A DNA stretch of 62,947 nt, the filler included, from Sphacelaria rigidula (lineage: Eukaryota), in NCBI GenBank assembly GCA_964200075.2. It is 11 parts of 11 records of this genome, joined end to end, with 100 filler letters (N's around TTAATTAATTAA, not from the genome) between each part and the next. Parts side by side here need not be neighbours in the genome. Positions count along the whole stretch, not along the records: positions 1 to 5,632 come from CAXNAA020025712.1; 10 more parts are not named here. The stretch is one strand, 5' to 3'. The translations under genes were made by a program, and so were the position numbers. The notes beneath the pieces were generated by a model. It saw only the letters and a list, made by a program, of their open reading frames with translations, made no database searches and had not been told where the DNA came from. Shown here one piece after another: positions 1-22,393 of this stretch. The first letter of the stretch is position 1. Each line of letters starts with the position of its first letter.

Positions 1-76
1 TTTAGGCCAGGGAAAGCACGACTTTTGAGTTGAACCTCATTTTTGTTTCAACCCCATTTTCGAAAATCGGCTGTTG
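1..76. mobile_element. Right terminus of foldback/MITE family (complete copy at 38441-38864)
   Basis: tttaggccagggaaagcacg...cgaaaatcggctgttg aligns with 38790-38865. Confidence 0.8.
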
Positions 77-103
77 ACTCGTTCTTGGCAGCGAAAGCTA
101 TCA

Positions 104-197
104 ATGGGTAGTTTGCCAAATCAGTCGATGACGACAACGACACCATCTTCTTCAGCAGTCGCTGCTGTCATATCTGAAATGACGTCCCAGCCTCGAG
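104..197 (+). CDS. Putative first or upstream exon of the Arg-rich protein (MGSLPNQSMTTTTPSSSAVAAVISEMTSQPR)
   Basis: ATG at 104 (or acceptor ggcag| at 91). Ends G|gtttct in phase 1, matching the phase-1 start of exon 273-434. The donor is weak and the intron is only 75 bp. Confidence 0.4.
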
Positions 198-272
198 GTT
201 TCTTGACGCGTACACAACGAGGGAAAAGGTTAAACGGCTAGTCATCCCTGCTGGAATTCGATATCACTGCAG

Positions 273-434
273 ATCTCCGTCGTAGAAGGAGGAGGAGGAA
301 CAGATTTCCTCGTCGGCGCCGCAACAGGGGTCGCCGCAACAGGGGTCGCCGCAACAGGCGGGGTCGCAAGAGGGCCCGGCGGAACAGGGGGCGCGGCAGA
401 AGAGGGAAGAAGAGCAAGAGGGACAATGACGGAG
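273..434 (+). CDS. Exon encoding an extremely Arg-rich, protamine-like segment
   Basis: Acceptor cactgcag|, donor GAG|gtatgt. The phase-1 frame reads LRRRRRRRNRFPRRRRNRGRRNRGRRNRRGRKRARRNRGRGRRGKKSKRDNDG (29 Arg in 53 codons, using CGT/CGC/CGG/AGA/AGG). Confidence 0.7.
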
Positions 435-1083
435 GTATGTCCGTCACTGTACAGCCGGGGTGGCGATACGGAGAAGCTCGTTGAGTTTAGAGAACAAGTT
501 TCGAGGTGAACTGATCGATGCAATATTTCTCTGTAATGCGTGAGAGTAACGAGTGCTGAAGGAACCGCACGGTAGTTCAGAACACCTCAGGCAGGATCGC
601 GTTTTCCGAAACTCATCGGGCCGGTTCCTGCGAGGACCATGCCCCTGACCCTAACCCAAACACTAGCGCTGACCCTAACCGTAACCCCAACCATGGAGGA
701 TATTGGCATCATCTACGATATAATATGCTTCTGCTCGAGCGAGGACATTGCTGGTGCATGCTGATTCCTTCCAGCATCTCACCGAAACCTCGAGCCACAT
801 TCTAATCGTGAAACATGCTATTTGTACGGCAAGACATGGGGACGAACTCTGCGTCAAATCTGTTGCACTCTTTAACACCCATCATTACGATCAGCCGGGT
901 TGTCAGTTAAATTAACGAGTCACCAGCTGGTCGGTGCTATCTGCATGCTTTCGAGATGATGCTCTGCTTAGGTCTACACAGACGCGTCAGTCTCGATGCT
1001 ATCATTTCAGTTATGCCACTTTTGTGCTGACAGTGGATCCATTCGCGTGTGGCTGGTCTGTTGTGGTGGCCCGTGTTGATCAG

Positions 1084-1169
1084 ACAAGAGGCGGAAGCAC
1101 CACGGAGATGATGACAAACACCGGAGCAGGAAGAACCGTGGGCACAAGGGCAAGCGAAGCGATGACTAG
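1084..1169 (+). CDS. Terminal coding exon of the Arg/Lys-rich protein (DKRRKHHGDDDKHRSRKNRGHKGKRSDD*)
   Basis: Acceptor gttgatcag| is phase-compatible with exon 273-434. TAG at 1167-1169, with a strong donor |gtgagt at 1176 (a 3'UTR intron in this model). Confidence 0.6.
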
Positions 1170-1470
1170 ACACCCGTGAGTCACATGGCATCGAGCAGGC
1201 TTTCGACTTTTTCTGCTCGGTCGTGCACGTACATCCAGTCAACATGGGATGACGTACAAGCGACGGTTTGGGTCGATACGAAGAAACAATTTTTCGCCAG
1301 CTGAATCTCGACCCTTGAATAGCTTCCCGGTGCCGTGTTGAGCACCAATGGTTGTTGCAGAATTCACATGCACCATTTCGCGGCCACACTGCAAAAAACA
1401 ATCAACGGATCGTTTAAACCCAGTTCAAGATATCGCCCTGCTGCTACTATACATTGATACCGTATCAATG

Positions 1471-2350
1471 TAGTAGTCAGCATCAGAAGTTTTCAGAATT
1501 CGCAGTTATGGTTCTTGAGGGTTTCTCGAGTATCATTCTTCATAACCTCTCGAAAGTGCTAGCTCCGGTAGATTTAGGGGAACGCGTAGGCCGCGCTCAA
1601 ACTGCATTGCCCAAGTTGGTGCTTTTGGGGAGATACGGACTAGATACTCCCTTCATCAGGAGGGTGTCATTGACCGTTTTTGGTCCGATGAAAACAGTTT
1701 CCCAGCTCTTCCGCAACGAAACAGTGAGTATTCAGATAACTGAAGATGTACACAATTCTTCACAATAACGATTGAGGTCGTGCTTCCCTCCTGTACTGCA
1801 CAGACGCCAGTCAAGCATTTTTTGCGGATGGCCTGATTTGTGTTTTTTATCGCATGCTATTCTCGATGAGCACTCGAAAGTGCTAGCGTCGATAGTTTTG
1901 GCAAAATCAGCAGACAGTGGTCAAATCACAATGCCCAAGTTGGTGTTCCGAGGGCGATACGGAGTGAAAGACCTCGTTTATCAGGAGGGTGTTATTGACC
2001 GTGGATGGTCCAACATACGAACTTTTCCGGTTGCAGCGCGGTGAACGGGTGCAATTAAAAAAAAGTAATCATTTTTCAGTCTTGACTTATATGATCGGGA
2101 TCGAGTCAGTCCACCGAAAATACCGAAAGGCTAGAACCTGGGGTTGCACTTCCGTAGGACCTCCGAAGATCGTTCAAATCCGTAACTCACTCAACATTGA
2201 TCGCAAATATATTTTCTTTCAACATTTGTCGGAAAAATAAAAGTATTTATAATCGTCACTGTGATGAGCGGAGGCAAGCGAAACAAATTTGTGAAATCTT
2301 TGAGAAACTAAGAAATTACGAATTCTGCATACTTCTGACGCTGACTACTG
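1471..2350. mobile_element. Tc1/mariner-type non-autonomous TIR element (~880 bp)
   Basis: ~35-bp imperfect TIRs (TAGTAGTCAGCATCAGAAGT.. / ..ACTTCTGACGCTGACTACTG) with TA after the right end. Internal direct repeat with ~320-bp spacing (1550-1690 vs 1872-2012). Other copies at 5733-5803 and 28071-28560. Confidence 0.85.
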
Positions 2351-2493
2351 TAGTTTCCGCCGTTTGGCGAAATACATGTTTGAACCTTGAAAGGGTACCG
2401 GCCGCCTGAGAGACCCCGCACACGAACATGCAGCGACCGCGTGCAGTCGTTTAACGCAACTATCAACTGTTCTCGTTCTTGGCAAACAAACAG

Positions 2494-2571
2494 GTGAAAG
2501 CGCCTCCTCACTCGAGTACGGGAGGGAGTCTGTGGCAACTAGTCGCGGGGCTTTTGTCACTGCCCCGACAG
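2494..2571 (+). CDS. Possible isolated exon, unknown product
   Basis: aaacag|GTGAAAGC...CCGACAG|gtgcta. 78 bp, open in two frames, no recognisable motif. Confidence 0.3.
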
Positions 2572-5500
2572 GTGCTAGACTGTGCGGCGGTTTGCCAGGC
2601 GCTTGGTGGAAGCTATGAACCTAGCTTGTTGTGTGTTTGTTGCACCACACAACTCAGTGTTGTAGGCAATTCCTGTACTGTCGCTGATTCTGACAAGAAA
2701 GGCACCTGAAGGTTGTCTCGTACGCATTTCATATATTTTGTAGCGGCTCCCGTTGCTGGGTGGAGGGGGGGGGCTCGGTAAAGGAACGTCCTGGGTTGTG
2801 ACAAACATCATTGCTTTCGTCGCAGCCACTGTATCGCTAACGTTTCTACTTTTCCTTCTATCGAGTTGAGCCCCATTTTGTAATGAGCACTGTGGATTTC
2901 GTCGCAACGACTGTGTGGACTGATACTTGTTTTGGTTCTTTCCCCCTGTTGTCATGTCGGGGATATGTAGGGGAAGTCCGATCACGGGCCGCGTTTGGGG
3001 GTAAGGGTGTATGTAGTCCAATTATTTGAGTCAGATACCCAAGTAAGGTACCTGTCAGCTCCACAATCGTATTCCACACTGAGCGAGTATATAGAGTATG
3101 AAGATTGTCGCCAGTAGTACGCGTTGAGTGAGGGTTTTAAAATATTCGTGAAAACGTGTGGTCAACGATGTTGCCCGCACGAAATATTCCGTTCAAGATA
3201 TTTACCCTGGGGTCTGAGACTTGTACCGTACATCGGAGATGGGGTTTAGATCATCGGATGCAGATGCTGTTGGAGCAAACAATGTTTATTATTAGTTACA
3301 TACCGCGGTTGATATAAAAAATATTATCTATCTCCAGATGGCGTCAAATTGACATGAGGCTTCCCTGTCCTCCCACCAGGTAAACGAGGAGAACGGCAGA
3401 GATTTTGCACTCGCAAGTAACACTCGCGGCGAAACATACAGCTTCTCCTCTATGAAATCCTGCGTTTTCCAACCTGTAAATCGTTTAATGCTCGTTGCTT
3501 TCTAATAAGAACCTTGAACCGTCAATTTCTGTTCCGTCCTGTACTGATTGCGGTATTCGCATGTCATGAAAGTTTGGTGTTGCTGCTTTACAGTATCTTC
3601 GAACGTGTGGGACGGACTCAAAGCGGCCGCTTTCGCTCAGATCACAAGAGACATTGTAATCGTGTTTACGGCGACGAAAGCTAGCGATGATCGGGTTTGC
3701 CTGCCGTACTTCTGCCAGCGGTGCTTGAAAGCCACGGGCCCTTTGAGGTTGGCGGTTGATGGCGTGGGTGTCAAATGCAACAAGTGGTAAGATCATGGAG
3801 TACCCTTGTTCTTCGTGGGTTCATATGTCGCCCAAGGTGGTGACGCGTGATCTCGTCACATCGGAATTCATTCTTGAAAGCTGCTGTACCGAGGTGTTCA
3901 CGCACCCAGCGCGTGCTCCAGATTGCAGCATGGATGCACCCCTCTGCACCACGCTCGCAACGGTTCGTCGATCACTACCACAGGTATCTTTCTTCACTCC
4001 GCATGTCAAGAAGATCTCCACAAGGTCTTGATTTCTCACACACCCTTCCTCTTCCCCAACTGGCGTCTCGCACGCCGTTGTCGTTGGGCATCCATAGGGT
4101 CGCTCACATGAATGTCGGGTGAAATCAATGATGAACGAGACCCCTCAAGTTCAAATTGGATATATCTGTTGGTTTCGCCGCACCACCGCCCTTGCTGGCA
4201 TGTGTGTGACAGAGAACAGTAGTAGCGGCGACGGGAACATTGCCCTATTTTTCAACGACATGTTTTTCAGCGCACAGAGGCGCGTCCTGTCCAGAAGGAG
4301 AGGCAGAGAAAAATCGATCTTCGCATTCGTGAGCTCGACAGGCACTTGTAAGACGAGAGAGAATCTCTCGGCAGCTCGATGTTTCGACACCCCGAAAATT
4401 GGGTAAATGCCGGTAACGTCAATGATGCCAGTCTCGAGCGATTTGTAATCGCCGGGCGAGGACACAAAGGACACGGGCGAGGAGCTTCCTCTCTGTCGTT
4501 GCTTCTCTCGGCTTACTCGCCCCGGAGTAGGCAACCTCAGTACACCTTTGCCCTGATATGTTTTCACGAACAGAGGCTCAAGCCGTGTGTGCCAGGCGGC
4601 AAGCGAAGCTGCGCAGTAACAACCGACTCAGATCCAAATCCAGTTGTCACAGAAATTGGTTATCTCCTTATACTTTACAATAAGAACCAGAGCCAGTAGT
4701 TTCCCCACGATCACAAACCTCTCTGGTGAGGACTCACTTGGAACTCAGAGCAACGGCGGCAAGGCTGATGATATCCTGGGCTCAAGATAGAGTGCTCATA
4801 GGAGGGCTCTGGGCGACCGCGTGACTACCTTTCGCAGGAAATATATCCGTATTACATCAAAACAAAATGACCAAAGGGCAGAAACCCTCCATCCAACGAA
4901 CGTTCCGGGAACACTATCCGTTGTGCACATGATCATTCAATGTGCAACAGACATCAACCATACCGTATCTCCCATCGACTATTCGGAACATGAAATTGGA
5001 TCTTTCAACAAACTGACATCCCTCGGCGGCCAATCAAGAGTCATATCCGACGTTCATTTACTCCGACATCTGTGTGTCCAGAACGCTGCGGTACCTTATC
5101 GACGCTAGTCCCTTCAAATACCATAACAATAGCCCACCCTGAAAGGTGAGCATGCAGACGCTCGAAGACGCCGCTGTGTATGACGGTATGGTCAGGGTAT
5201 TTGCGTAATCTCGAGCTTCGAAGGCTCACGTTTCACCATCATCTCCCACACCACAAAAATATTTTAGATGAAAATAAAACAAGGGCAAAGGAGAAATCCC
5301 GCATCATGGCAAATAACGGAGTTTCAGCTTCGGCCTGCCAACCACAACCTACAAGACAAGCACGTCACCCGGACGGTCAAATTATACTCATCAGCATGGA
5401 ATACAAAAAAAAACTACACGCCGTCGATAAAGTCAGCGCGTTACTCGGATGGTCTCACGACCAACACTCTGGAAATCCACACAAACCAGACTATTCCTCA

Positions 5501-5632
5501 GGCGACGAGAACTGTACGACCCACGGTCGAACGAATATCAAGGGGGAGCGCAACAGTCAACAACAAATTGTGCGAATTGAGGTTTAACTCCGAGATGAGG
5601 TTCAAGCCTAAAACAGTGCTTTCCCCACACTT

Positions 5633-8939: not shown

Positions 8940-9150
8940 TGGTGGGACTGACAGTCCGAAGTAACCCTGGCGTGCGTAGGACGCGTTTTCGTGTAAATTT
9001 CCGCCGCAGACGCTGATTTGAGGTCTGTCAACACCGCGCCTTGCCCAGGGAATACTTTGCAACCCCCTTGTTCGAGGGTTCTTATACGCCTTGCTTGGGA
9101 CTAGGGTTAGGGTTAGAGTTATTTCGAGGTCATATATTTCCGAGAACGCT
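8940..9150 (+). repeat. Dispersed repeat carrying a telomere-like (TTAGGG) tract
   Basis: Aligns by eye with 54040-54290 (+), 46960-47115 (-) and 61135-61320 (-). Contains CTAGGGTTAGGGTTAG. Confidence 0.65.
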
Positions 9151-9908
9151 ACCAAGTGGTAACATGACCTCACTGCATGCTCTGACCGCCTCACCCATGG
9201 ACTGTATCCACTATTCCCCTGGCTTTGTTAATTTGCTTGAAATTTCTCAAAAGTCGCTTGATTGCCTTCCACAGTCTTTTCCACTTGACAATAGACACAG
9301 GGAGCTGAAAGTGCTGTGTTTTTGCGTCTTAAGTTGTTCTGCTGCCCACCCTCGCGCGCGCTGTTGCCCATTCGCCAGATGAGATCCTCGTGGAAACAAG
9401 TCTCCTTTCTATGGTACATCTATGACCCCATATCTTCGTGCACTACGGGTGACCTTTGTTCGGGTTGGGGCTAACATAAGGGAGGGTACTGGTACTACTA
9501 CCCTTAGCCGTAGACCATGAGGGCAACCTATTTCGGTATTCTTCTGGAAAACTGACATGAACCCGGCAGAGTGATAACCGCTCTCTGAACATGTTAATTA
9601 TCCATGTTCAAGGTCAAGTTGCGTCATAATGCCGTAGGTACTCGCCAGGGTTGGGCATGAGGTTGATGTGGCCAAATGTTTCCGCTTCCCGGTGTTAGTA
9701 GACGTAGGCCGATGGATACATGATACATGCAACATCGCAATTGGCAAGAATAGTTATGCAACTGCTCGTTTGAATGTTTCAGTGATTATCTCAACTAGCG
9801 CTGTATCCATACATTCAGGTACCTCCTGCAAGGCAACGTTCGCCTCGTGTGCGTGCAGTCGGAGGTTGGACGCATGGAGGCTCGAGCGGTGATACGATTA
9901 TTGCTCAG

Positions 9909-14816: not shown

Positions 14817-17029
14817 TCAAAGCGGTGCGTAGACGTCGTGGATGACGTCGATGTTGCGCTGGATACCGCGGCGAAGTCCTTCGGAATTGAGTCGCTGAAG
14901 CCACCAAGATCCGCGTGGTGCAGATGGGCTAGTGGTACATAGCGCTGGCCGGAGCTTGAGATGTATGGGTCCAGGGCCATCCATGAAGCGCACAATGTAT
15001 GTGTCAGGAGAAAACCAGGTCGGTGGAGGGGGTTCACCTGAGGTCGTAGCTGCCTTTGAGCCACAGGTAGCTGCCCTAGGGTAGTACTCGCTGGTGGGCG
15101 AAGAATTTTGCTTTACAAGTCTTGGTGGGTACAAGTCCGTAGTCATCGGCGACAAAGGGTAGTCCTTTGTCGCGGTGGAGTTCGCGGACTGCCGCACCAC
15201 GACGCATGTTACGATATCTCTTGTTGTGAGCAAGATGTTGCTGTTGGGGTTGCGTCCAGTGCAGGAAGATTGCACGGCGCTGCAATTGGAGGTCGGATTT
15301 GCGTTCCCAGGATGCTCTCCGAAGACCTTGCTAGTGGGTGGTATACGTTGCAGCAATTTTCCTCCTCGACCACGGGTGATCTGATGGCCGGAGATGGTGG
15401 ACACGGCCAGTCGAAGGGGTTGTTCCGTCACATCGTCTGTTGTAAGGTGATAAGGCGGTGACTTGGTCGAGTAACTGTTGAGGACGTACTGCGTGAGGCC
15501 GGCAAGCAGGTATTTCGGCACGTCAGATATGTCATGCGGGTTTGTGCAGGGTTTGCACCGGTGCACGGAGACGCGGGCTTATGTATCACTGCCTTAAAGG
15601 TCGCGAGGCAGGTCGTAATATAGAAACTTATCGCCAACGGGCTCTTCATCCGGTGAAGTTGGCGAGGGACCAACGGTCAGGATTTTGAACGACCCTGTCC
15701 AATTTAGGGGCAATTTTGTCGTCAAGACTGTCTCGTTGGCTACTTGTCCGGTGCCTTGGCGGATGGTTGACAAACTGTTGTAGATCCAAACCCATTCGCC
15801 GATCTTCCAGTGACCAATGCTTCGGTAGGGGTGCAAGTTTTGCGCAAAATCTTGCCTGGTTCAGGTGCTCTCAACGATTCTAGGTGCACAAGAATATGGG
15901 TTACGACATCCCCGTTTGCAAAATCATTCGGGATGTCCCTAGAACATTGGAATAGTAATCCTGGTGTACTCTCACATAACTCATGTGTCGTGTTTGGGAT
16001 GAGATCAAGGGCTGCTAACAATTCTAGACTCGGAAAATATTTGTGCACTCCTATCGTAGCATCCCTCCAGTTGGGGCGCTTGTGCATAAAGTTGTAGAGG
16101 GAAGTGTTGGATGTCTCAAGACGCGAGGCTTCCATAGCATGCTTTTCGTACACGAGAGTGAAAGCTTTTCGTTGTCGTGAATGCGCTAGTTCGTGATAGG
16201 ATATCTGATACTGATCCGATCCTTGTGGCCATCGAACGTTTGTCGCTCAAACATGGCGATGGGCAGCCAAGGATAACGTCCAAGATGAAGTTCGTTCGAG
16301 GAAAGGCCGGTGGCGGCGTCAACCGAGTCGTTGTAGGACAAGATGACATGCGAGAGATGGAGGTCCCAATCATTTTGGCGGTTGTTGACGACCATAGAGG
16401 GCATCTGGGCCATGGTATGGTTATCTCTTTCGGTACCACCGTTACCGTTCGGGTGGTAGATGCTCGTGGCACTTTTGCGGATGCCCAGGAACGTGTCAAG
16501 CTCGTGAGAGAGATCTGAGCAAATGTTTGATCATTGCCTGACAGGAGTCGTTTCGGGCAACCATAGTGCTTAATGTAGTCGTGGACCGATACACTGGCGG
16601 TTCCGGCGGCAGTGAAATCTTCAGCGGTTACTGCGTACATGGACGCGTGGCGGCTGAAGCGGTCGGTGAAGAGTAAGACGTAGGTGTTGGCGCGACCTGT
16701 GGTCGGTAGAGGGCCGAAGTGCTCGAAAGACACAAGGTGGCCCGGGGCATTTGGGGAGTCCCACAGAAATGACGGGCCAACGTACTGACTGCCGTGACGT
16801 TTTCGGAGCTTGGCATTTGAAGCAGCGTCGAATCCAGTAGCGAGTGGGGGTTCCCATGCCAAGCCACCAGTAGAAACGTCCAAGAAGCGCTAGGGTGCGA
16901 GTGACGCCAAGGTGGCATGACAAGTCAGTGTGGCAGCCTTTTATGGCCCAGGGGCGCATTAATAATGGAGCGTATAGACGTGTTGGTTCGTCGTTGAGTA
17001 GGCGTGCGTGGCGTCCCGTGGTTGAGGCG
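14817..17029 (-). mobile_element. Decayed Ty3/Gypsy LTR-retrotransposon pol 3' region (integrase with chromodomain-like C-terminal extension)
   Basis: HHCC zinc motif (GCHTDLSCHLGVTRT..FYWW..CFKCQ), rve core (FGPLP..YVLLFTDRFSR..YGCPKRLLS; YHPNGNGGTER), GPF-like NWTGSFKI, then VSTISGHQITRGRGG. Multiple frameshifts and stops. Confidence 0.93.
15812..16067. mobile_element. MITE with 4-bp TSD (CAGT), Sola2-like termini, inserted in the integrase
   Basis: TIRs GACCAATGCTTCGGTAGGGGTGCA / TGCACTCCTATCGTAGCATCCCTC. Removing it restores the frame KRPNWKIGEWVW. Confidence 0.85.
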
Positions 17030-17096
17030 GAGTGTGTGTGTGTGTGTGGTGTCGTCCCATCTATTCTGGACGCCGGTCTACACCTTTCGGTATATG
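17030..17096 (-). mobile_element. 3' end of SINE family A with (CA)n tail, inserted in the Gypsy element
   Basis: Reverse complement of 47443-47510. Confidence 0.85.
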
Positions 17097-17196
17097 NNNN
17101 NNNNNNNNNNNNNNNNNNNNNNNNNNNNNNNNNNNNNNNNTTAATTAATTAANNNNNNNNNNNNNNNNNNNNNNNNNNNNNNNNNNNNNNNNNNNN

Positions 17197-20801: not shown

Positions 20802-21485
20802 CTATCGAGGAGTGAATAATTCTTCAACGGACGTGACTTCCCTTACGACCTCGTCTTGTGTCGATATATCTTGCTGATGCGGAAAGTCATCATCTCCATG
20901 TCGAGTCGAATCAGTGATACCGATCACTTCGGGAGGGTCCCATTGTGATTCTCCTGTGACCTGATTATACCAGAAGATTAAACCAGTGGACGCGTCTTGA
21001 AAAGCTCCCCAGTCCCCGGTACCTGCGGCCGATGTCTCCCCGGGATCGTCTTCGAAGTTGCCTTTGTCCGTCCGTCCCACTGATTCAGCACGTGGCGACA
21101 GTTGATCAGGCCGCTGCCACTGAAAATCATTGGTGCTATCATTGTAGTAGAACACGTTGCCGTCTGGAAGCGTATACTCTATCCAGTCGCCTTCCCGCCT
21201 CAGTCTCATCGACGAGTTTGCAGCATGTTTCATGCTGATGTCGCGCACGCTGGATGGTGTTTCCCACTGCGACGTCTGAGTAACGTGGTTGTACCAGAAC
21301 GCCCTCTGGGCGTTTTGATCTTCATATGCAATCCAATCCCCCCAGTGCTTGAGTCGCACAGATCTTCCTCGGTTCAGAGACAACATCGATTCCGGGCGGG
21401 AAAGCGGGTCATCCTGTAACGTAGGAACTCCGATGCTTGCGCCTACTTCGTGCTGCGCAAGGGCCTCTTTGCATCTCCTATGTCC
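20802..21485 (-). CDS. Terminal exon of an ankyrin-repeat / triple-WW-domain protein
   Basis: Acceptor aaagcag|GGA in phase 0. Three WW motifs (GDWIAY..FWYNH.TQTSQWETP; GDWIEY..FYYND.T..FQWQRP; GDWGAF..FWYNQVTGESQWDPP). Stop at 20802-20804. Confidence 0.92.
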   Translation of the reverse strand, partial: GHRRCKEALAQHEVGASIGVPTLQDDPLSRPESMLSLNRGRSVRLKHWGDWIAYEDQNAQRAFWYNHVTQTSQWETPSSVRDISMKHAANSSMRLRREGDWIEYTLPDGNVFYYNDSTNDFQWQRPDQLSPRAESVGRTDKGNFEDDPGETSAAGTGDWGAFQDASTGLIFWYNQVTGESQWDPPEVIGITDSTRHGDDDFPHQQDISTQDEVVREVTSVEELFTPR

Positions 21486-21858
21486 CTGCTTTCGGGGGAA
21501 GATAAGAGCGATCTGCAGATTTTCTGGCGTACAGAAGGACAAAACGTTGGTGTCATGGGTAAAGTCGGTCTACGGTTAAGGGGTAGGCCGCCTCCTTGGT
21601 TGCAGTAATATCGAGGATAGCAGGGTGAGAGTACCTATATCATTCCGCATTTTACACGGTATCTTCACCACTGCTGCACTTGATAGTACGCTATAGTACG
21701 GGATATGGTCAAGTTAGTTGGAGTCAAGGCGGTGACAAGCGTACGGATGGTATCCTGCCCCCATCGAATATTGACGAACGCCAAGACCACTGCAACCGTT
21801 GAGCAAAATTACTCTGTTGAGGTTTCATGGTTGCCGCACACAGGTACTTGAAACGCAC

Positions 21859-22209
21859 CTCCAGAGTAGCTAGAAACAGCACTGAGTCGAAGTATGAGTT
21901 GTTTACGTGATGATGTAGCTGGTACTCCATGAGAATCTTCTCACACGCTGACTGCCCTTTGCGAGAGGCAAGGTCGATTGGTCGGAGGCCTTTGGAATTT
22001 CGCAAATCTGGTGCTACACCGTATTGAAGTAGGAGCAGGAGGCACGCTGTGCTGCCGTTGCAGGCGGCCGCGTGCATCGGAGTGTCTCCACGCTTGTCTG
22101 TTTCCCCCAGGTCTTGACCGCCACACTCAAGAAGCTCACACAGAAATTCAGCTTTCTCCAGGCGATCCGTCGCACACGCAACGAACAAAGGTGTCCGCAT
22201 ATCCACATC
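21859..22209 (-). CDS. Ankyrin-repeat exon of the same gene
   Basis: catcag|...GAG|gtgcgt, 117 codons. Ankyrin motifs RTPLFVAC, GDTPMHAAACNG and GLRPIDLA. Confidence 0.92.
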
Positions 22210-22393
22210 CTGATGACCGCACGAGGAGCGCACTTGTTCAGCAGTCGAAGGTTAAATGGGTACCAAACAGCCGGGTAATATGGAACGCAGTTTTCTGACT
22301 GGCTCGCAGTAACATAGGGAAATCTGATCGGACGATACTCCTTGGTCAACGGCTGACGTCATCCATGGCCCTTTAAAGCGAAGGGACTTTGGG

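What the first reader, a model, noticed from the sequence alone, without database searches (positions are those of the whole stretch)
104..1175. Hidden spliced gene for a protamine-like, extremely Arg-rich small protein
Seen: an exon with strong splice sites (cactgcag|273..434|gtatgt) whose phase-1 frame is LRRRRRRRNRFPRRRRNRGRRNRGRRNRRGRKRARRNRGRGRRGKKSKRDNDG (29 Arg and 4 Lys in 53 codons). It includes a 15-bp RRNRG tandem repeat. It splices in phase to 1084-1169 (DKRRKHHGDDDKHRSRKNRGHKGKRSDD*) and, through a weaker donor, from an ATG exon at 104-197, giving a ~113-aa protein. Arg is encoded by five different codons and third positions are mostly G/C. The only other open frame (ISVVEGGGG..) has many A-ending codons, so the Arg frame is favoured. 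The ORF track shows only antisense shadows here. Established: Arg-cluster proteins of this composition are typical of protamines and sperm nuclear basic proteins in animals and some land plants. Inference: this may be a DNA-condensing gamete protein in a stramenopile (I know of no characterised brown algal one), or a nucleolar/RNA-binding tail, or a polycation binding anionic wall polysaccharides.
Basis: partly seen in the sequence, partly recalled or inferred. Interest (0 to 1): 0.75.

Follow-up and report, generated by a model that had tools for sequence, protein, structure and literature searches.

The report
Secreted algal protein with polyarginine tail
The arginine-rich exon is real and spliced, but it is most likely the tail of a much larger brown-algal protein that is predicted to be secreted and would cling to the negatively charged cell wall, not a sperm protamine.

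Summary
The Arg exon (273-434) and its splice to 1084 are real: transcript-like contigs show the GT..AG joint, and the Arg frame is under purifying selection against paralogs (pN/pS 0.31). The proposed ATG exon (104-197) and the 113-aa protamine are not supported. Three of 3 paralogs have a stop in that ORF, and the transcript's upstream exon ends CAG, not GAG. The true 5' half lies on contig C16015, split from the window at a transposon. It gives a 418-aa ORF: predicted signal peptide, 18-Cys acidic modules, a 190-aa Pro/Thr stalk, then the Arg tail. Paralog C2103 carries all these exons on one contig, and a public gene model (P0001) has the same layout. No Pfam family, fold match or annotated homologue outside this family was found. 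Best reading: a small, apparently lineage-restricted family of secreted wall or mucilage proteins whose polycationic tail would bind alginate or sulfated fucans and present cysteine-rich modules on a stalk. That function is inferred, not tested. Adhesive and defence roles are live rivals; protamine is about 2%.

The parts
1..75 (.). One end of a high-copy terminal-inverted-repeat element inserted in the intron before the Arg exon. The assembly breaks here. The 5' half of the gene is outside the window on G000:C16015 minus strand: exon A 4975(ATG)-4891, A2 4079-4011, B 3595-3461, C 3004-2942, D 2453-2367, E 1917-1348.
   Evidence: C16015 ends in the same terminus, inverted, 93% over 74 nt; the two flanks join to give the uninterrupted paralog intron with a 3-4 nt duplication; exon coordinates
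76..272 (+).
   Evidence: in-frame TAG in 3 of 3 paralogs; transcript contigs start matching at 270
273..434 (+). Exon F, phase 1-1, 54 codons: Arg-rich block (29 R, 4 K, 3 acidic)
   Evidence: pN/pS 0.31 over three copies
435..1083 (+). Intron F-G (GT..AG, 649 nt), with a dispersed repeat at about 526-711
   Evidence: joint in X3 and X1; repeat hits
1084..1175 (+). Exon G: 28 codons rich in K/R/H/D, stop TAG at 1167-1169, 6 nt before the donor GTGAGT
   Evidence: pN/pS about 1 on few sites
1176..2493 (+). Intron G-H, holding a repeat element at about 1468-2352
   Evidence: X6 loose end; BLAST map
2494..3270 (+).
   Evidence: 73-80% conserved in 4 paralog contigs

Best explanation
The Arg exon is spliced and conserved for its arginines, and it is most likely the C-terminal tail of a 418-residue protein that is predicted to be secreted and would be held on the anionic wall polysaccharides by that tail. 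Steps: (1) shown: exons F and G are spliced in the Arg frame. (2) Strongly inferred: six upstream exons on C16015 belong to the same gene. (3) Predicted from sequence: residues 1-25 are a cleaved signal peptide, so the protein enters the secretory route. (4) Inferred: the 18 cysteines fold into three small disulfide-bonded acidic modules, and the 190-aa Pro/Thr repeat is an extended, probably O-glycosylated stalk. (5) Inferred: the tail (net charge +36 over 82 aa) binds alginate carboxylates and fucan sulfates electrostatically. This would keep the protein in the wall or mucilage, where it cross-bridges polysaccharide and presents the variable cysteine modules to an unknown partner.
For: Upstream CDS is 1009 nt, phase 1, and reads without a stop into the Arg frame for 418 aa. 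X3 record 8 has 272 nt before window 270, that is 275 nt of upstream exon; the last repeated 30-mer in exon E starts exactly 275 nt from its end, where a 31-mer assembly should break. C2103 has all exons in order on one contig, and public model P0001 (238 aa) has the same layout. The signal-peptide-like start is kept in 3 of 3 copies that hold exon A: basic N-region, the most hydrophobic 11-mer at residue 10, small residues before a conserved Gln, no 19-residue membrane segment. No KDEL/HDEL or hydrophobic GPI-type end is seen in the sequence. Exon F is the most constrained exon: pN/pS 0.31 (Fisher p 0.001-0.027 for three non-independent pairs) against 0.47-1.26 for the others. Brown algal walls are built of alginates and fucose-containing sulfated polysaccharides (PMC12223506, passages). 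Plant chimeric Pro-rich wall proteins bind polyanions through basic stretches (PMC4132260, passages).
Against: No binding, location, glycosylation or secretion was measured, and no signal-peptide predictor was available. The 272 upstream transcript letters were not displayed (193 loose-end rows not shown), so the E-F join for this copy rests on length, three matching letters and the transposon ends. X1's 128 upstream nt are not explained by a repeated 30-mer (nearest is a 20-mer at 127). Paralog C8761 lacks exon F and has only a Gly/Ser/Arg tail; C23631 and C8761 stop earlier in exon G, so the tail is not fixed in the family. The cysteine modules evolve near neutrally between the cysteines (pN/pS 0.64-1.26), which suits defence as well as structure. 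The many RR sites could be cut in the Golgi (recalled: kexin/furin-type proteases), which would separate tail from stalk.
Confidence: 0.55

Rival explanations
1. Secreted defence precursor: dibasic cleavage frees a protamine-like cationic antimicrobial peptide and small knottin-like modules that act on epiphytes, microbes or grazers.
For: Fixed cysteines with fast-changing loops (module B 53-66% identical in 5 paralogs against the C16015 copy; pN/pS 0.64-1.26). Nearest ESM Atlas clusters for module B are knottin-type peptides at 0.78-0.83, a lead only. Multi-copy family (6 module-B loci of 7 candidates).
Against: The modules are acidic (17 D/E against 8 K/R). No Pfam hit, no Foldseek match at E<=0.001 and none at Z>=2 among 48,161 chains, on a weak model. 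No basic sites lie between the modules and the stalk (0 K/R in residues 147-336). pN/pS above 1 is not significant on 20-45 codons.
Confidence: 0.18
2. Dedicated adhesive protein of rhizoids, propagules or settling spores: the poly-Arg tail forms a complex coacervate with alginate or sulfated fucans and gives cohesion, as KR-rich regions do in flatworm glue.
For: Flatworm adhesives combine KR/GRK-rich, Thr-rich and Pro-rich regions with Cys-rich domains (PMC6745481, passages). Kelp adhesive is protein-rich and its proteins are unidentified (PMC13485184, passages). C8761's tail is a Gly/Arg repeat.
Against: No tissue or stage data. No Tyr or Trp for catechol-type chemistry. No annotated homologue from other brown algae was returned, although all must attach.
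Confidence: 0.15
3. Decaying duplicate family: transcribed and spliced, but the window copy makes little or no functional protein.
For: Introns near the exons are as alike as the exons (76-88% against 76-89%), so the copies are young; transposons sit in several introns; most exons show pN/pS near 1.
Against: 418-codon open frame, intact splice sites, all indels in frame, every cysteine kept, significant constraint on exon F.
Confidence: 0.06
4. Protamine-like sperm nuclear protein, made either from a short transcript starting at 104 or by cleavage of the tail from the long precursor.
For: Tail is 43% Arg in clusters. Liverwort protamines are cut from longer H1 precursors (title of a reference in PMC10858212; that paper itself not read).
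Against: ORF 104-197 is broken by a stop in 3 of 3 paralogs; the transcript's upstream exon fits exon E; a signal peptide would take the precursor out of reach of the nucleus; the whole protein is 10% Arg; Fucales sperm are reported as histone-type (PMC10858212, passages).
Confidence: 0.02

Closest known systems
Plant chimeric Pro-rich wall proteins of the AtAGP31 / NaPRP4 / TTS type (PMC4132260, passages)
   Same: Secreted; Pro-rich spacer with Pro-Val and Pro-Thr motifs; a Cys-rich domain; a basic stretch thought to bind polyanionic wall polysaccharide in a non-covalent network.
   Different: No PAC domain or any Pfam hit; reversed order (Cys modules first, basic part last); poly-Arg instead of a His stretch; no sequence homology found; brown alga.
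Flatworm adhesive proteins Mlig-ap1 and Mile-ap3 (PMC6745481, passages)
   Same: Secreted proteins with K/R- or GRK-rich low-complexity regions proposed to interact with polyanions.
   Different: Those systems are large and carry CTL, vWD, C8, TIL and EGF domains; none was detected here; no adhesive-tissue evidence.
Inhibitor cystine knot (knottin) and Dickkopf-N/EB-like Cys-rich repeats
   Same: Module B spacing C-x6-C-x11-CC-x5-C-x13-C; C+D module with CC and CxC; weak Atlas neighbours of these kinds.
   Different: No significant sequence or structure match; acidic; fused to a stalk and a basic tail; disulfide pattern unknown.
Protamines and protamine-like SNBPs
   Same: Arg clusters on mixed codons in an 82-aa block.
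   Different: The block is a tail of a 418-aa protein with a predicted signal peptide; not small; no histone H1 domain found.
P0001 (NCBI CAM9290096.1, 'unnamed protein product', source label Sphacelaria rigidula)
   Same: Paralog; matches the exons of G000:C2103; same exon order; 52-54% identical to the window model.
   Different: Short stalk (43 aa against 190) and shorter tail through a new donor in exon F; no function assigned by its source.

Membership tests
Protamine / protamine-like SNBP | Low molecular weight | tested here: not met
   418-aa ORF; paralog model 238 aa; definition from PMC10858212 passages
Protamine / protamine-like SNBP | High arginine content over the protein | tested here: not met
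   10% over the whole ORF, 43% in the tail only
Protamine / protamine-like SNBP | Nuclear protein without signal peptide | tested here: not met
   signal-peptide-like N-terminus in 3 of 3 copies with exon A, judged by inspection and hydropathy; no predictor run
Protamine / protamine-like SNBP | Expression restricted to male gametes | not testable with these tools
   runs carry no library or tissue record
AtAGP31-type chimeric Pro-rich wall protein | Signal peptide | tested here: met
   by inspection and hydropathy only
AtAGP31-type chimeric Pro-rich wall protein | Pro-rich repeat domain | tested here: met
   86 Pro and 45 Thr in 190 aa
AtAGP31-type chimeric Pro-rich wall protein | PAC domain | tested here: not met
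   no Pfam family at E<=1 for six exons of the window gene plus exon A, or for P0001; exon A2 of the window copy was not scanned
AtAGP31-type chimeric Pro-rich wall protein | Hydroxyproline O-glycosylation | not testable with these tools
   needs mass spectrometry
Knottin / inhibitor cystine knot | Six cysteines with an adjacent CC pair in knottin-like spacing (pattern recalled) | tested here: met
   six Cys invariant in 6 of 6 genome copies and 6 of 6 further database proteins
Knottin / inhibitor cystine knot | Knotted disulfide topology | tested here: inconclusive
   model pLDDT 61; no Foldseek match at E<=0.001; no VIA match; best PDB sequence hit E 1.8
CBM1 / hevein carbohydrate-binding modules | Exposed Trp/Tyr residues for sugar stacking (recalled) and a Pfam match | tested here: not met
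   0 Trp and 0 Tyr in the 418-aa model; no Pfam hit
Flatworm KR-rich adhesive proteins | KR- or GRK-rich low-complexity region in a secreted protein | tested here: met
   35 R and 10 K in 82 aa
Flatworm KR-rich adhesive proteins | CTL, vWD, C8, TIL or EGF domains | tested here: not met
   no Pfam hit
Flatworm KR-rich adhesive proteins | Expression in adhesive cells and presence in footprints | not testable with these tools
   no tissue data

The most novel reading that the evidence does not exclude
This family is a protein component of brown algal glue: a secreted polycation whose poly-Arg tail coacervates with alginate and sulfated fucans while a Pro/Thr stalk presents knottin-like modules to the surface, convergent on the KR-rich adhesives of flatworms. 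It would be a first named structural adhesive protein candidate for a brown alga.
Probability: 0.15. Interest if true: 0.7.

Novelty: new variant of a known kind. Interest (0 to 1): 0.38.

Why it matters
It removes a false lead for a stramenopile protamine. It also defines an uncharacterised family of secreted brown algal proteins with a selected poly-Arg tail. [quoted passage not shown] The tail is easy to synthesise and test against alginate and fucoidan. Trypsin would shred the tail and leave the 190-aa stalk uncut, so standard proteomics could miss most of the protein.

Tried and rejected
No RNA holder was listed as such: runs X1-X6 are 'RNA?' by guess. I laid 4 of 10 listed runs and no DNA run as a control. 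Their contigs skip both introns at GT..AG, and all genome hits for exons F and G (4 and 5 loci) sit in intron context, so a processed DNA copy is unlikely but not excluded. Window 81-240 had no cover in 4 of 4 runs; recorded here only, as a hole proves nothing. Gly/Ala/Thr frame: open in exons F and G of all copies, but rejected by the phase of exon E and by codon-position counts; the exon G alternative-frame rows are invalid (offset absorbed by a leading gap) and were dropped. A 7-nt micro-exon at 191-197 (YAG acceptor kept in paralogs) was considered; it ends GAG and does not fit the contigs' CAG. One search's model (395 aa) missed exon A2; one search picked early donors for A2 and D (412 aa); one search has the corrected 418 aa. 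Scripts started exon H one base early (2493), after the stop, with no effect on the protein. Homology searches: Arg exon, longer proteins, 0 of 1047 candidates; module B, no candidate; P0001 27-146, only itself among 7; JGI metagenomes, 0 of 51 pattern hits; Pfam none except one sub-cutoff hit on P0003; Atlas no usable feature hit and TM by query <=0.34. AlphaFold on P0001 alone gave pLDDT 49.6, with the Cys region under 50 and the Arg block as a helix; no fold search was run on it. No complex prediction was sent. Nine paper searches listed no description of this family; subscription papers on brown algal AGPs and wall proteomes, and all supplements, were not seen. Earlier scan findings: nothing.

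Full report
Setting. The window is a string of contig pieces about 5.6 kb long separated by N spacers. Places 1-5632 are G000:C25712, which begins at window base 1, so anything upstream of the finding is cut off. A DNA search with 1-1300 found four other contigs with 70-77% identity over exons and introns alike: C23631, C9195, C2103 and C8761. Exon F occurs at 4 loci and exon G at 5.

The observation. Exon 273-434 has the stated splice sites, 29 Arg on five codons and GC3 39 of 53. Four of 10 listed runs were laid as contigs; all four are RNA by guess only. X3 and X1 show the joint 434/1084 (GT..AG; depth 52 and 61). X1 shows a second form with the 3-nt-shorter exon G start seen in C23631. X5 and X6, from two other studies, show the same junction as loose ends. 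X6 continues behind 1179 with 30 letters equal to window 2498-2527, so exon G ends at 1175 and splices to 2494; the stop lies 6 nt before that junction. The contig lengths leave 759-777 nt for this 3' UTR exon.

The frame. Exon F is 162, 129, 117 and 132 nt in the four copies. Against three paralogs pN/pS is 0.21-0.39 in the Arg frame, 0.57-0.99 in the Gly/Ala/Thr frame and above 2 in the third; only 1-2 of 17-23 changes fall on codon position 2. Fisher p is 0.001-0.027 for three pairs that are not independent. These are uncorrected proportions on about 40 codons.

The first exon is wrong. The ORF from ATG 104 is stopped by TAG at the homologous codon in 3 of 3 paralogs that hold the region. 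The transcript contigs match from window 270 with no mismatch, so the exon before ends in CAG; 104-197 ends in GAG. X3's contig carries 272 further letters upstream; the letters themselves were not displayed.

The real 5' half. Searching with the intron upstream of exon F in C23631 found C16015. It ends in the same repeat terminus with which the window begins, inverted, and the two flanks join into the uninterrupted paralog intron with a 3-4 nt duplication. C16015 cannot be C23631's 5' half, because the two overlap in homologous intron at about 70% identity. On its minus strand lie six coding exons, all ending in phase 1: a signal-peptide-like exon, four cysteine-rich exons and a 570-nt Pro/Thr exon ending CCAG|GT. 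Joined by coordinates they give 418 codons without a stop, in the Arg frame. An independent check: the last repeated 30-mer in exon E starts 275 nt from its end, and X3's contig holds 272+3 = 275 nt upstream. X1's 128 nt are not explained this way. C2103 carries all exons on one contig. A profile search of 1.84 billion proteins with module B returned 7 proteins. The best, P0001, is a public 238-aa gene model of the C2103 copy with the same layout, unnamed, labelled Sphacelaria rigidula by its source, so G000 is likely that species or very near it. The other six are 89-153 aa calls on contigs of 0.6-2.4 kb; they keep the six cysteines, look like single-exon calls, and carry no organism.

Anatomy. 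Residues 1-25: basic N-region, hydrophobic core, small residues before a conserved Gln (signal peptide by inspection). Residues 26-146: 18 Cys in groups of 4, 6 and 8, acidic (pI 4.1). Residues 147-336: 86 Pro, 45 Thr, 14 acidic, no K or R. Residues 337-418: 35 R, 10 K, 4 H, 9 acidic. No Trp or Tyr anywhere, and no membrane segment. Across paralogs the stalk varies from 14 to 190 codons, the cysteines are fixed while the loops change freely (pN/pS 0.64-1.26), and the Arg exon is the most constrained (0.31). C8761 lacks exon F and ends in a Gly/Ser/Arg repeat. The family has about five genes of this layout (window, C10015 probably with C23631, C2103, C9195, C8761) and two more distant module-B loci; C9195 and C2103 are 88-95% alike and may be recent duplicates or haplotypes.

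How it most likely works. Shown: splicing and frame of F and G. Strongly inferred: the join to C16015. Predicted: secretion. Inferred: the polycationic tail binds alginate and sulfated fucans, the matrix polymers of brown algal walls (PMC12223506, passages), and so retains the protein, while a glycosylated stalk presents disulfide-rich modules. Plant AtAGP31-type proteins work this way with a His stretch and a PAC domain (PMC4132260, passages), and flatworm glue uses KR-rich regions (PMC6745481, passages). I give 0.55 to a general wall or mucilage tether, 0.18 to a defence precursor, 0.15 to a dedicated adhesive, 0.06 to a decaying copy and 0.02 to a protamine. Nothing here measures binding, location or expression pattern.

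Known families. It is not a protamine (size, Arg share and signal peptide fail; PMC10858212, passages, reports histone-type sperm proteins in Fucales). It is not a member of the AGP31, CBM1, hevein or flatworm adhesive families by domain content. Knottin membership is open: the spacing fits, but the model is weak (pLDDT 61) and no structure match was found (Atlas 0.83). A brown algal genomics preprint notes that many genes gained early by brown algae encode secreted proteins (10.1101/2024.02.19.579948, passages); the passages seen do not mention this family, and its supplements were not seen. Nine paper searches listed no description. The searches are weak for short Cys-rich modules, so the apparent lineage restriction is provisional.

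Verdict. It is a new variant of a known kind (secreted chimeric Pro-rich, Cys-rich protein with a basic anchor), with no detected homology to named families. Interest 0.38; 0.7 if it proves to be an adhesive component.

Noticed in passing
L040 (G000:C11161) 2510-2980 +: Intronless ORF with the cysteine modules back to back, and a second decayed copy on the minus strand nearby; possibly a retrocopy of this family.
   Followed up: partly
L029 (G000:C2103) 9094-9225 and L028 (C9195): A G-to-T change creates a GTGAGA donor inside exon F; the public model P0001 uses it and has a shorter Arg block. The older donor is GTGTGT in these copies.
   Followed up: partly
L031 (G000:C8761), exon G: This paralog lacks the Arg exon; its last coding exon is a Gly/Ser/Arg repeat that stops at the same TAG as C23631, six codons before the window's stop.
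   Followed up: partly
window 3355-4472: A dispersed element that lies downstream of the gene here and, inverted, inside intron E-F of C9195 and C2103.
   Followed up: no
window 273-434 in run X5: A run labelled as another organism holds the exon at 1 mismatch with one 15-bp repeat unit missing, at depth 2.5: the Arg repeat number varies.
   Followed up: no
window 20802-22251 -: ORFs with WW-like and ankyrin-like motifs, recognised by eye.
   Followed up: no
window 14817-17148 -: Broken ORFs that look like a decayed LTR retrotransposon integrase region, recognised by eye.
   Followed up: no
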